Position numbers: made by a program. Shown piece after piece: positions 39,301-42,300 of a stretch of DNA of 64,000 nt (positions are counted from its first letter, which is position 1; each line of letters starts with the position of its first letter). The stretch lies in the NCBI RefSeq assembly GCF_055900595.2, contig NZ_CM148325.1. The stretch is one strand, 5' to 3'.

Positions 39301-42300
39301 ATTCTTGTTCAGCTCGGCGATTTTTTGCGCGATAAAGTCAGCGATTTCCGTTTCGGCTTGTTTTTTTAACTCTTCAATATTCACTGTTAACCTCTTCTGG
39401 TCTTAAAAGACAGCAACACGCCAGTAAGGTGTTGGTTCCCGGTCCCCTGGTCAGGTAAGAAATGTTATAAGCCATCTCCCCGAAAGATTCAATAATCAAC
39501 AGGTTATCGCTTACTATACATACAGCGTTGAAGAAAAATAAGGCAGATATAAAAAAGGCTCCACGAGGGAGCCTGATCTTATTTTGTGAAATCCAGCGGC
39601 GCATGGTCAGTGCGTATTTGCAGCGCGACGTTATCAAAGGTGATCATCGTCGATTTACAAAAAATACACTTTGCCCCTAAAGGATTTCGCTCCGTCACAT
39701 CGAATGCCGATGTGCGGTACTGTGAACCATGACAACATGGACAGCGGAAATGGAGATGTTGAGTAATAACGGCAACCTTAGAGCGTAACAACGTTCGCTG
39801 CCGCGGGACCACGTTGCCCCTGCTCAATAGAAAATTCAACTTTCTGATTTTCGTTCAGCGTGCGGAATTCATTGCTCTGGATGGCAGTGAAATGGACGAA
39901 AACGTCTTTGCTGCCATCATCAGGAGTGATAAAGCCAAAACCTTTATCTGCGTTAAACCATTTTACTAAACCAGTCATTTTATTAGACATATTTTACTTC
40001 CTTCATTTTGGGCCTTTCGGCAAACAGGGCTTTAATACAGAAACTACTTAGTGTTCAGGAGAGAGACTCAAAAGAAGGGGATAATGCCTGATAATGAGAA
40101 CTGCTTTAGTAAACTACTTTGTATGCTGTCTGTCTTTCAAACCGACGCAGCTATTAACGCATGATAATTGAGATTAAGCAAATTTTATTTTAGCCGTCCG
40201 GCGGTCTTAAATATCGCTGGCTTTATTTTATTAACCCCGTATAGTGCAGCGCAGTATTTTCAGTAAGGAATTTGTTTGTCCCGTAAAATGACAGGAATTG
40301 TCAAAACCTTTGATCGCAAAAGCGGCAAAGGATTCATTATCCCCTCCGACGGTCGTAAAGAAGTCCAGGTCCATATTTCCGCATTCACTCCCCGCGATGC
40401 AGAAGTGCTTATACCAGGATTACGCGTGGAATTTTGCCGCGTAAATGGCCTGCGTGGACCAACAGCGGCAAATGTTTATCTCTCTTAATATGACGCTGCT
40501 TGTTTAAAACTGACTGGTTTTATTGGAATAGATTAATAGTCAACACTACACATTATAACGCAAGTTACTTTTTCATCAAGAAACTAATACATTTGACCGA
40601 ATATCTCTGTACCTAATAGTTATAAACGCCACTTAACAGCCGGTTATAGTACCATTTGAAACTATATTACCAACAATAGTTAATAGCTTTCTCAACAATT
40701 TTCTTATCTTTAATTTATATTTTTCTAAGATTTATCTTATGCCCACGAGTCGTATTTCCAGAGGGAAATCGTTAACAATCCTATATTTCCCTCTGCGCGC
40801 CTTTCCTACCCGCAGTATATAGTGCAAGCGGTATGAGGAAAGGGAGATTTCACAAGGATGTTATACTCAAAGTAGATAATTCTGATCTCAAGCGTACGTA
40901 TTGTCCATGCGATGAATAAAGGAAAAGTTATGAAACACAAGTTTTCTGCAATCCTTATGGCCTTCATGTTGACGACGCCAGCTGCGTTTGCTGCACCAGA
41001 AGCAGCAAACGGGACCGAGGCAACGACGGGTACTACTGGCACCACAACGACCACTACTGGTGCCACTACGACTGCTGCTACCACCGGTGGCGTAGCTGCT
41101 GGCGCGGTCGGCACAGCGACTGTTGTCGGTGTGGCAACGGCTGTTGGTGTGGCGACGTTGGCAGTTGTTGCAGCAAATGACAGTGGCGATGGCGGTTCTC
41201 ATAACACCTCAACCACCACGTCCACTACGCGCTAATACCACTTTAACGCGTCGAAATTAAAGTTAAATGATACCCGGTTGCGATATTCGTACCGGGCTTT
41301 AGAGATTTGCATTTTTTTAATTAACCTTTCAAGGATTAAAGGTGCGCCCTCTTATTTTATCAATTTTCGCACTATTTCTTGCGGGATGTACGCACAGCCA
41401 GCAAAGTATGGTCGATACATTTCGCGCCAGCCTATTCGATAATCAGGATATCACCGTAGCGGATCAGCAGATCCAGGCGTTGCCTTATTCCACGATGTAT
41501 TTACGCCTTAATGAAGGGCAACGAATCTTTGTGGTACTGGGATATATAGAACAAGAACAAAGCAAATGGTTATCCCAGGATAACGCCATGCTGGTTACCC
41601 ACAATGGACGTCTTTTAAAAACCGTCAAACTTAATAATAATCTGCTGGAAGTGACAAATTCCGGGCAGGACCCTCTGCGTAACGCGCTGGCAATAAAAGA
41701 CGGCAGCCGCTGGACGCGCGATATTCTCTGGAGTGAAGACAATCATTTTCGCTCTGCGACCCTGAGTTCCACTTTTTCCTTTGCTGGATTAGAGACGCTG
41801 AATATTGCGGGTCGCGATGTGCTGTGTAATGTCTGGCAGGAAGAGGTGACTTCCACGCTGCCAGAAAAACAGTGGCAAAACACATTCTGGGTCGATTCGG
41901 CTACTGGCCAGGTTCGTCAAAGTCGGCAAATGTTAGGCGCAGGGGTTATTCCCGTAGAAATGACGTTTCTTAAACCCGCACCATGAATAAATTACTGTCG
42001 TATTTCATTGCCAGCGTACTTTACGTAATGACACCCCATGCCTTTGCGCAAGGAACGGTGACTATTTATCTGCCTGGCGAACAACAGCCCCTTTCCGTTG
42101 GCCCCGTGGAGAATGTTGTCCAGTTGGTGACACAACCGCAACTGCGCGATCGCCTCTGGTGGCCTGGAGTCTTGCTGACCGACTCCGCGGCGAAAGCTAA
42201 AGCGCTTAAAGACTACCAACATGTCATGGCACAGCTTGCTTCCTGGGAAGTAGAAGCTGACGACGATGTGACGGCAACGATTTAATCCGTGCGCCAGCAG

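What the first reader, a model, noticed from the sequence alone, without database searches (positions are those of the whole stretch)
40930..41235. GfcA low-complexity Thr/Gly/Ala-rich region
About 60 residues of TTGTTGTTTTTTGATTTAATTGG... follow the signal-like N-terminus. This repetitive coding DNA generates the antisense ORFs 40806..41114 and 40888..41202 in the track, and could vary in length between strains by slippage.
Basis: seen in the sequence. Interest (0 to 1): 0.15.

Follow-up and report, generated by a model that had tools for sequence, protein, structure and literature searches.

The report
Threonine-rich tract of capsule gene gfcA
The flagged stretch is the known E. coli gene gfcA, the first gene of the group 4 capsule operon; its threonine-rich low-complexity tract is real and already described, and its length varies between strains only rarely, so the finding is ordinary.

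Summary
Window 40930..41235 (+) is gfcA (ymcD), the first gene of gfcABCDE-etp-etk, lying between cspH and gfcB. It encodes 101 aa and is 97% identical to K-12 GfcA. The low-complexity tract is real: 28 Thr in 101 residues, and T+A+G+V make up 71%. Both antisense ORFs exist; they are by-products of codon composition.

The DNA is not a clean repeat. Thr codons are mixed, and the only repeat is an imperfect 21-nt unit in 2 copies.

Of 5,426 complete E. coli genomes, 3,607 carry gfcA. About 150 sampled full-length matches were all exactly 306 nt. Targeted searches found eight length variants, about 0.2% of the 3,591 genomes with a near-full-length match. These are +18 nt (5 genomes), +21 nt (1) and −15 nt (2). 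All are in frame, and all lie at that 21-nt repeat. So slippage does occur, but rarely, and this is not a hypervariable locus.

Within E. coli, substitutions are mostly synonymous (23 of 29 variable sites fall at codon position 3). Between species the tract shrinks: the protein is 94 aa in E. albertii and 86 aa in another enterobacterium.

The Thr richness and a possible O-antigen modification have already been published (Larson 2021). Function is still unknown, and glycosylation cannot be tested with these tools.

Seen in passing: gfcC and gfcD each carry a premature stop codon in this strain.

The parts
40930..41235 (+). [quoted passage not shown]
   Evidence: The ORF is. It matches CDSs annotated 'threonine-rich inner membrane protein GfcA' in 3,607 E. 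coli genomes. It has 3 aa differences from K-12 GfcA and 1 from strain 2013C-4282. The flanking gene order is the same as in K-12.
40919..40923 (+). Shine-Dalgarno-like AAGGA, 6 nt upstream of the ATG at 40930
   Evidence: Read directly from the sequence. The alternative ATG at 40912 has no such motif.
40930..40992 (+). Predicted Sec signal peptide, codons 1-21 (MKHK, a hydrophobic core, then AFA|AP)
   Evidence: Read from the translation. The cleavage site is inferred from the A-x-A rule and was not tested. The AF2 model puts a helix at residues 3-15.
40993..41091 (+). Thr/Gly/Ala low-complexity tract, codons 22-54 (16 Thr, 7 Ala, 6 Gly in 33 residues); predicted disordered
   Evidence: Composition is. 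AF2 pLDDT is 33-38 with no secondary structure here. This is the part that differs in length between species.
41032..41072 (+). Imperfect 21-nt tandem repeat (unit ACTACTGGCACCACAACGACC, 2.0 copies, 85% matches); the site of the rare in-frame length changes in other strains
   Evidence: Found by TRF. Strain RMDEC465 has a perfect +21 nt duplication of this unit. The O169:H41 ETEC strains have a +18 nt duplication. CAVP773 and OY754834 have a -15 nt deletion between ACGAC microhomologies.
41092..41175 (+). Ala/Val/Gly-rich hydrophobic segment, codons 55-82 (VAAGAVGTATVVGVATAVGVATLAVVAA); candidate transmembrane helix
   Evidence: The Kyte-Doolittle 19-residue maximum is 2.16. AF2 models a helix at 60-84 at low confidence. 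The segment is nearly invariant from E. coli to E. albertii and is recognisable in P0032.
41176..41232 (+). Polar C-terminal tail, codons 83-101 (NDSGDGGSHNTSTTTSTTR); the xGDGx...TTTT motif is shared with YjbE
   Evidence: Alignment A2.
40806..41114 (-). Antisense ORF (102 aa, Val/Pro/Ala-rich); a by-product, not a gene
   Evidence: Listed. Codon shuffles of gfcA keep such frames open. Its third codon positions coincide with those of gfcA, so its apparent conservation is automatic. No RefSeq record seen annotates it.
40888..41202 (-). Antisense ORF (104 aa, Arg/Cys/Ser-rich); a by-product, not a gene
   Evidence: Listed. Its translation changes at many positions between strains, whereas GfcA does not.

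Best explanation
The region is gfcA, the small first gene of the E. coli group 4 (O-antigen) capsule operon.

Shown by the sequence:
- It encodes a 101-aa pre-protein with four parts: a Sec-type signal peptide; a 33-residue Thr/Gly/Ala tract predicted to be disordered; a 28-residue Ala/Val/Gly hydrophobic segment; and a short polar Thr/Ser tail.
- The low complexity lies in the amino-acid composition, not in the DNA. Codons are mixed, and the only DNA repeat is an imperfect 21-nt doublet.

Shown by comparison:
- Within E. coli the protein is under purifying selection and its length is almost fixed at 306 nt.
- Replication slippage or unequal pairing at the 21-nt doublet occasionally gives in-frame alleles of +18, +21 or -15 nt, in about 0.2% of complete genomes that hold a near-full-length gfcA.
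- Over longer times the tract changes length between species.

Inferred, not shown:
- After signal-peptide cleavage the Thr-rich tract lies in the periplasm.
- The hydrophobic segment tethers the protein at the inner membrane, or is handed to GfcB/GfcC/GfcD.
- There the protein acts as an accessory factor for assembly of the O-antigen capsule.

The two antisense ORFs are passive consequences of the ACN/GGN/GCN/GTN codon composition. In this particular strain gfcC and gfcD carry premature stop codons, so the operon is probably not functional.
For: Identity and context:
- Searches give the gene order cspG, cspH, gfcA, gfcB (PF11102), gfcC (PF20616 and PF06251), gfcD (PF06082), gfcE, etp, etk.
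- One search gives 97% aa identity to K-12 GfcA.

Length constancy:
- About 150 sampled full-length matches all span 306 nt.
- With the K-12 allele as query, only 27 of 3,607 records fall below 95% identity.

Rare variants:
- describe them: 324 nt in 5 genomes, 327 nt in 1, and 291 nt in 2.
- All are in frame and all lie at the 21-nt repeat.

Purifying selection:
- Among 7 alleles, 23 of 29 variable nucleotide sites are at codon position 3, and only 6 amino-acid positions vary.
- Window versus K-12 gives 12 synonymous and 3 non-synonymous codon differences.

Change between species:
- E. albertii GfcA is 94 aa, and P0032 is 86 aa and sits in a syntenic operon.

Structure:
- The AF2 model has pLDDT 43, no structure in the tract, and a helix at 60-84.
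- Hydropathy of the hydrophobic segment is 2.16.

Literature:
- GfcA is described as 30% Thr, 101 aa, and either inner-membrane or secreted; loss of any gfc gene abolishes the capsule phenotype (PMC8592465).
- It is described as 'natively unstructured' in bioRxiv 10.1101/2021.02.17.431615.
Against: - The mechanistic part is untested. No experiment on GfcA localisation, topology or modification was found.
- The tail after the hydrophobic segment is acidic (NDSGDGG) and has a single Arg, at the C-terminus. That is a poor fit to a cytoplasmic tail under the positive-inside rule.
- The paralogue YjbE has a much less hydrophobic equivalent segment (KD19 1.24). Both points weaken the 'inner membrane anchor' reading.
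- The census of length variants is not exhaustive. Indels of 3-12 nt would not stand out in the identity bands; they are bounded only by sampling, with none in about 150 rows.
Confidence: 0.85

Rival explanations
1. GfcA is not a membrane anchor but an exported substrate. After signal-peptide cleavage the unstructured Thr-rich polypeptide is carried by the LolA-like GfcB (with GfcC) to GfcD, whose N-terminal barrel resembles the amyloid exporter FapF. GfcA is then displayed or released at the cell surface, possibly carrying O-antigen on its Thr/Ser residues, and helps to hold the capsule.
For: [quoted passage not shown]
- The N-terminal halves of GfcD and YjbH match FapF by fold recognition (PMC9603273).
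- GfcA is predicted to be unstructured.
- The paralogue YjbE lacks a convincingly hydrophobic segment (KD19 1.24), and the GfcA tail is acidic. This suggests that membrane anchoring is not a conserved property of the family.
Against: - There is no experimental detection of GfcA outside the cell or of any glycan on it.
- No O-oligosaccharyltransferase is encoded in the operon (the Pfam content of the operon genes is).
- The GfcA hydrophobic segment scores well above the usual transmembrane threshold (2.16).
Confidence: 0.2
2. The tract is a contingency-type simple-sequence locus whose length changes often between strains and tunes or switches capsule production.
For: - Three independent in-frame indels fall within the same ~45 nt of the tract.
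- The tract length differs between Escherichia species.
Against: - The only repeat is an imperfect 2-copy 21-nt unit, and the codons are mixed.
- 99.8% of the complete genomes with a near-full-length gfcA keep 306 nt.
- All variants keep the reading frame, so there is no on/off switching.
- Where the operon is silenced, IS elements are involved instead: searches show an IS1D and an IS5 transposase gene next to gfcA, and the IS1 silencing of K-12 is recalled from Peleg et al. 2005 (not readable here).
Confidence: 0.03
3. One of the antisense ORFs (40806..41114 or 40888..41202) is a real overlapping gene.
For: - Both ORFs exceed 100 codons.
- The translation of 40806..41114 is almost unchanged among 7 strains.
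Against: - Codon-shuffled gfcA keeps comparable antisense open frames.
- The 40806..41114 frame shares its third codon positions with gfcA, so its conservation follows automatically from selection on GfcA.
- The other ORF changes at many residues between strains.
- Neither ORF is annotated in any record listed.
- Sense-strand homologues with the same architecture lead syntenic operons.
Confidence: 0.02

Closest known systems
E. coli GfcA / YmcD ('threonine-rich inner membrane protein GfcA', e.g. WP_001295358.1 in K-12 and WP_001299283.1 in O157:H7 and strain 2013C-4282)
   Same: It has the same locus, the same 101-aa length and the same architecture. It has 3 aa differences from the K-12 protein and 1 (L5F) from the O157-type protein.
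   Different: - It carries a private L5F change in the signal peptide and a distinct set of synonymous changes; the best DNA identity in complete E. coli genomes is 98.0%.
- There is no IS1 upstream, unlike K-12.
- The downstream genes gfcC and gfcD carry premature stop codons here.
YjbE (Pfam PF11106, 'exopolysaccharide production protein YjbE'), first gene of the paralogous yjbEFGH operon
   Same: - Both are small, signal-peptide-bearing, Ser/Thr/Ala/Gly-rich proteins.
- Each is encoded directly upstream of YjbF/GfcB, GfcC-family and YjbH/GfcD-family genes.
- They share the motif ...AVGVA..LA...GDG...T-rich C-terminus.
- The literature treats gfcABCD and yjbEFGH as paralogous operons.
   Different: - E. 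coli GfcA does not match PF11106 even at E <= 10.
- GfcA has a ~17-residue longer Thr tract and a clearly hydrophobic segment (KD19 2.16 against 1.24).
- YjbE is Ser-rich rather than Thr-rich in the middle.
GfcA orthologues in E. albertii (P0005) and in an unnamed enterobacterium (P0032, loci L008-L010)
   Same: They occupy the same position in a complete gfcABCDE-etp-etk operon. The signal peptide, the hydrophobic core and the AANDxGDG...TTT..R tail are conserved.
   Different: The Thr tract is shorter by 6 codons in E. albertii and by 17 codons in P0032, and it has many substitutions. P0032 reaches 24 bits on PF11106, below the 27.9-bit cut-off.

Membership tests
GfcA (E. coli group 4 capsule operon protein A) | First gene of gfcABCDE-etp-etk, between cspH and gfcB | tested here: met
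   Pfam assignments of the downstream genes are. The arrangement is the same in K-12 and strain 2013C-4282.
GfcA (E. coli group 4 capsule operon protein A) | Near-identity to reference GfcA over the full 101 aa | tested here: met
   98 of 101 residues match K-12 and 100 of 101 match strain 2013C-4282. DNA identity to 3,607 genomes is 94-98%.
GfcA (E. coli group 4 capsule operon protein A) | Required for formation of the O-antigen capsule | not testable with these tools
   This is reported for EPEC in the literature cited in PMC8592465. In this strain gfcC and gfcD have premature stop codons.
YjbE family (Pfam PF11106) | Match to the family HMM at or above the gathering score (27.9 bits) | tested here: not met
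   The window GfcA gives no PF11106 hit at E <= 10. K-12 YjbE scores 113.6 bits, and the bridging orthologue P0032 scores 24 bits.
YjbE family (Pfam PF11106) | Small secreted low-complexity protein encoded directly upstream of YjbF-, GfcC- and YjbH-family genes | tested here: met
.
Contingency locus / phase-variable simple-sequence repeat gene | Multi-copy, near-perfect short tandem repeat in the coding DNA | tested here: not met
   There is only a 21-nt unit in 2.0 copies at 85% matches, and Thr codon usage is mixed.
Contingency locus / phase-variable simple-sequence repeat gene | Frequent length polymorphism among strains, typically shifting the reading frame | tested here: not met
   About 150 of 150 sampled matches are 306 nt. 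Eight in-frame variants were found among ~3,591 genomes.
O-glycosylated Ser/Thr-rich (mucin-like) bacterial protein | Glycan attached to Ser/Thr, and a dedicated glycosyltransferase or O-oligosaccharyltransferase | not testable with these tools
   This is only a published speculation (PMC8592465). No such enzyme is encoded in the operon.
WGxxGxxG family (NCBIfam NF041742) | HMM score at or above the 35-bit cut-off | tested here: not met
   The score is 17.1 bits, E = 0.0064, over residues 1-47 only.

The most novel reading that the evidence does not exclude
GfcA, and by extension YjbE, is the exported protein substrate of the two-barrel outer-membrane protein GfcD/YjbH. On this reading it is an unstructured Thr-rich polypeptide, chaperoned by the LolA-like GfcB. 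It passes through the FapF-like barrel and serves at the cell surface as a possibly O-antigen-modified anchor or primer for the group 4 capsule.

The strict conservation of the amino-acid sequence of a 'disordered' tract across ~3,600 genomes, despite heavy synonymous turnover, would then reflect a sequence-specific acceptor or transport signal.
Probability: 0.2. Interest if true: 0.55.

Novelty: already known. Interest (0 to 1): 0.1.

Why it matters
It matters little as a discovery. The gene, its Thr richness and the glycosylation idea are all in the literature.

The comparative result is a small useful addition. The tract is selected at the amino-acid level and almost fixed in length in E. 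coli, and the rare in-frame indels sit at one 21-nt repeat. That argues the tract has a sequence- or length-dependent role rather than being a free spacer, and it gives natural length variants (96, 107 and 108 aa) that could be tested for capsule function.

It also shows that GfcA is not detected by any Pfam or NCBIfam model searched here. In the RefSeq records seen, several single-residue and all length variants are labelled 'hypothetical protein'.

Tried and rejected
1. Pfam and NCBIfam scans of GfcA gave no family above threshold. The weak New_glue, DUF4781 and WGxxGxxG hits are compositional.
2. A whole-library phmmer search found only 14 hits, mostly frameshifted or truncated E. coli fragments; only P0032 and P0028 were informative.
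3. Word-indexed protein searches with a single sequence and with a profile returned mainly assembly-error variants. They did not list the main 101-aa cluster, so they could not give a length census.
4. AF2 with a 7-sequence alignment gave pLDDT 43, too low for a fold search, so none was run.
5. The Rfam scan of 40300..41500 gave only a chance-level isrG match (16.7 bits against a gathering score of 100).
6. The PDB sequence search found nothing.
7. The terminator scan found none. The hairpin at 41273..41296 downstream of gfcA is not distinguishable from shuffled sequence.
8. A 'distant' blastn found no divergent gfcA in the 1,819 genomes that lack a megablast hit, so those genomes appear to lack the gene.
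9. The original operon paper (Peleg et al. 2005) could not be read.
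Full report
**Observation**

The ORF at 40930..41235 (+) is present. The mechanical ORF list starts it at an upstream ATG (40912). 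RefSeq records for the orthologous gene use the start equivalent to 40930, and that ATG lies 6 nt after an AAGGA motif.

The product is 101 aa and has four parts:
- a signal-peptide-like N-terminus, MKHKFSAILMAFMLTTPAAFA;
- a Thr/Gly/Ala tract, residues 22-54, with 16 Thr in 33 residues;
- an Ala/Val/Gly hydrophobic segment, residues 55-82;
- a polar tail, NDSGDGGSHNTSTTTSTTR.

The composition is far from chance. There are 28 Thr in 101 residues (P = 4.5e-13). The lowest 40-residue entropy is 1.84 bits, against at least 3.36 bits in neighbouring proteins.

**What it is**

The flanking genes are cspG and cspH upstream. Downstream lie gfcB (PF11102), gfcC (PF20616 and PF06251), gfcD (PF06082), gfcE, etp and etk. 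The order is the same as in K-12 and in strain 2013C-4282, where the gene is annotated 'threonine-rich inner membrane protein GfcA'. The protein differs from K-12 GfcA at 3 residues and from the O157/2013C-4282 form at 1 residue. So this is gfcA (ymcD).

No Pfam or NCBIfam model recognises it. Its paralogue YjbE defines PF11106. GfcA does not hit that model even at E <= 10. An orthologue from another enterobacterium (P0032, 86 aa) sits in a syntenic gfcABCDE-etp-etk operon and reaches 24 bits on PF11106, below the 27.9-bit cut-off. The alignment shows shared features: the signal peptide, an AVGVA..LA core, GDG, and a Thr-rich C-terminus.

**Is the DNA repetitive, and does it slip?**

The DNA is much less repetitive than the protein. 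Thr codons are ACG 10, ACC 8, ACT 8 and ACA 2. TRF reports only a 21-nt unit, ACTACTGGCACCACAACGACC, in 2.0 copies at 85% matches, at 41032..41072.

Of 5,426 complete E. coli genomes, 3,607 have a gfcA match, by megablast and also by the more sensitive blastn. Three evenly spaced samples of the rankings gave about 150 full-length rows, and every one spans exactly 306 nt. With the K-12 allele as query, only 27 records fall below 95% identity. That caps alleles with indels of 15 nt or more at under 1%.

A shortened allele turned up in the protein search (P0002). Using it as bait brought out the rare variants:
- 324 nt: a perfect 18-nt tandem duplication, in five ETEC genomes including O169:H41 strains.
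- 327 nt: a perfect duplication of the 21-nt TRF unit, in strain RMDEC465, on a backbone like that of the window.
- 291 nt: a 15-nt deletion between ACGAC microhomologies, in CAVP773 and OY754834.

All three are in frame and all fall inside the window-equivalent interval 41029..41075. Slippage therefore does happen, exactly where the imperfect repeat lies. It accounts for 8 of about 3,591 genomes with a near-full-length match (0.2%). This is not a hypervariable or phase-variable locus.

**Selection**

Among seven 306-nt alleles, 29 nucleotide sites vary. Of these, 23 are at codon position 3, and only six amino-acid positions vary, mostly A/T or A/V exchanges. The window differs from K-12 at 12 synonymous and 3 non-synonymous codons.

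gfcA is the most divergent gene of the operon per nucleotide (95.1% identity to K-12, against 97.0-98.8% for the others). This is largely expected, because 71% of its codons are four-fold degenerate (T+G+A+V fraction).

Between species the tract does change. E. albertii GfcA is 94 aa: six codons fewer in the tract, one fewer in the tail, and many substitutions in residues 24-45. Its hydrophobic core and NDSGDGGSHNTSTTT tail are almost unchanged. P0032 and YjbE lack about 17 residues of the tract. The tract is thus an Escherichia-lineage expansion that evolves by occasional indels but is held constant within E. coli.

**Antisense ORFs**

These are by-products. Shuffling the codons of gfcA keeps long antisense open frames (mean 90.5 and 69.4 aa for the two best frames). 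Both frames reach 80 aa in 26% of shuffles, against 1.9% of equal-size windows from gfcB, gfcD, gfcE and etp.

The frame of 40806..41114 shares its wobble positions with gfcA: Thr ACN reads as Val GTN on the other strand. Its near-perfect conservation among strains therefore follows automatically. The other ORF changes at many residues between strains. No record lists either ORF as a gene.

**How it probably works**

What is shown is the four-part architecture, the operon position, and purifying selection. The rest is inference.

AF2 gives a low-confidence model (pLDDT 43) with no structure in the tract and a helix at 60-84. The hydrophobic segment scores 2.16 on a 19-residue Kyte-Doolittle window, above the usual membrane threshold.

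The simplest reading is that the signal peptide is cleaved, the Thr-rich tract lies in the periplasm, and the hydrophobic segment tethers the protein at the inner membrane. There it would assist GfcB, GfcC and GfcD in handling the O-antigen polymer.

Several points favour a rival reading instead:
- the tail after the hydrophobic segment is acidic;
- the equivalent segment of YjbE is weakly hydrophobic (1.24);
- GfcB has a LolA-like fold;
- the N-terminal barrels of GfcD and YjbH are FapF-like.

On that reading GfcA is itself exported through GfcD, possibly carrying O-antigen on its Thr residues. Larson et al. already suggested this (PMC8592465). I found no experimental data on GfcA localisation or modification.

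**Comparison with what is known, and novelty**

PMC8592465 states that GfcA is 101 aa, 30% Thr, inner-membrane or secreted, and perhaps O-antigen-modified. The bioRxiv preprint 10.1101/2021.02.17.431615 calls it natively unstructured.

The additions here are modest:
- a near-census showing the length is essentially fixed;
- three natural in-frame length variants at one 21-nt repeat;
- the explanation for the antisense ORFs.

Verdict: already known, low interest.

**Seen in passing**

- In this window gfcC has K101 changed to TAA (42283..42285) and gfcD has W96 changed to TGA (43014..43016). gfcC also shows 8 non-synonymous against 2 synonymous differences from the nearest gfcA-type strain. The eight genomes closest in gfcC-gfcD (99.4% identity) list both genes under their normal product names. 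The operon is therefore probably inactivated specifically in the source strain.
- The best matches differ along the operon: 2013C-4282 for gfcA (98.0%) and the AST85 group for gfcC-gfcD (99.4%). This indicates recombination mosaicism.
- IS elements recur at gfcA in other strains: IS1D upstream in K-12, IS5 next to a gfcA of which only the last 38 nt remain in VREC0864, IS1A at the 3' end in cM2a, and IS5 upstream in CAVP773.
- One third of complete E. coli genomes lack gfcA altogether.

Noticed in passing
window 42283..42285 (gfcC codon 101) and 43014..43016 (gfcD codon 96): Both genes carry an in-frame premature stop: AAA to TAA in gfcC and TGG to TGA in gfcD, relative to K-12 and strain 2013C-4282. 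gfcC also shows 8 non-synonymous against 2 synonymous codon differences from 2013C-4282. The capsule operon is probably a pseudogene cluster in this strain, although gfcA, gfcB, gfcE and etp look intact. The closest complete genomes (99.4% over gfcC-gfcD) list both genes under their normal product names.
   Followed up: partly
window 40930..44825 compared with E. coli complete genomes: No complete RefSeq E. coli genome is identical here, and the best match changes along the operon. For gfcA it is 2013C-4282 at 98.0%. For gfcC-gfcD it is the AST85 group at 99.4%, yet AST85 gfcA is only 94.8% identical to the window by BLAST. This suggests recombination mosaicism and a source lineage outside that collection, possibly a Shigella or an unusual E. 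coli lineage.
   Followed up: partly
L001:5215-5912 (K-12), L003:4001-4969 (VREC0864), L014:1812-2509 (cM2a), L019:1-596 (CAVP773): Independent IS insertions cluster at or next to gfcA. IS1D lies upstream in K-12. In VREC0864 an IS5 sits beside a gfcA of which only the last 38 nt remain. IS1A lies at the 3' end in cM2a. A frameshifted IS5 lies upstream in CAVP773. The promoter and first-gene region looks like a recurrent target for silencing the capsule operon. The window itself has no IS there.
   Followed up: partly
E. coli complete-genome collection: 1,819 of 5,426 complete E. coli genomes have no gfcA match even with sensitive blastn. 3,714 genomes have gfcC-gfcD, so about 100 genomes keep the downstream genes but have lost gfcA.
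   Followed up: no
RefSeq annotations under hits H37-39, H78-81, H97-99, H155-158 and H169-175: Several gfcA alleles that differ from the common forms by one residue (for example V74A, V65A, R101P), and all the length variants, are annotated 'hypothetical protein'. No HMM in the Pfam or NCBIfam libraries searched here recognises GfcA.
   Followed up: partly
L004:2513-2851 (GCA_013342395.1): One E. coli lineage has the 15-nt-deleted gfcA fused in frame to the middle of gfcD. A deletion removes the gfcA 3' end, gfcB, gfcC and half of gfcD. This gives the 112-aa chimeric protein P0002.
   Followed up: partly
window 41273..41296: A GC-rich hairpin (ACCCGGTTGCGATATTCGTACCGGG) lies in the gfcA-gfcB spacer and is followed by a weak CTTT. 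The terminator scan does not call it, and the region's folding energy is not distinguishable from shuffled sequence (z = -1.1). It could still attenuate read-through from the small first gene.
   Followed up: partly
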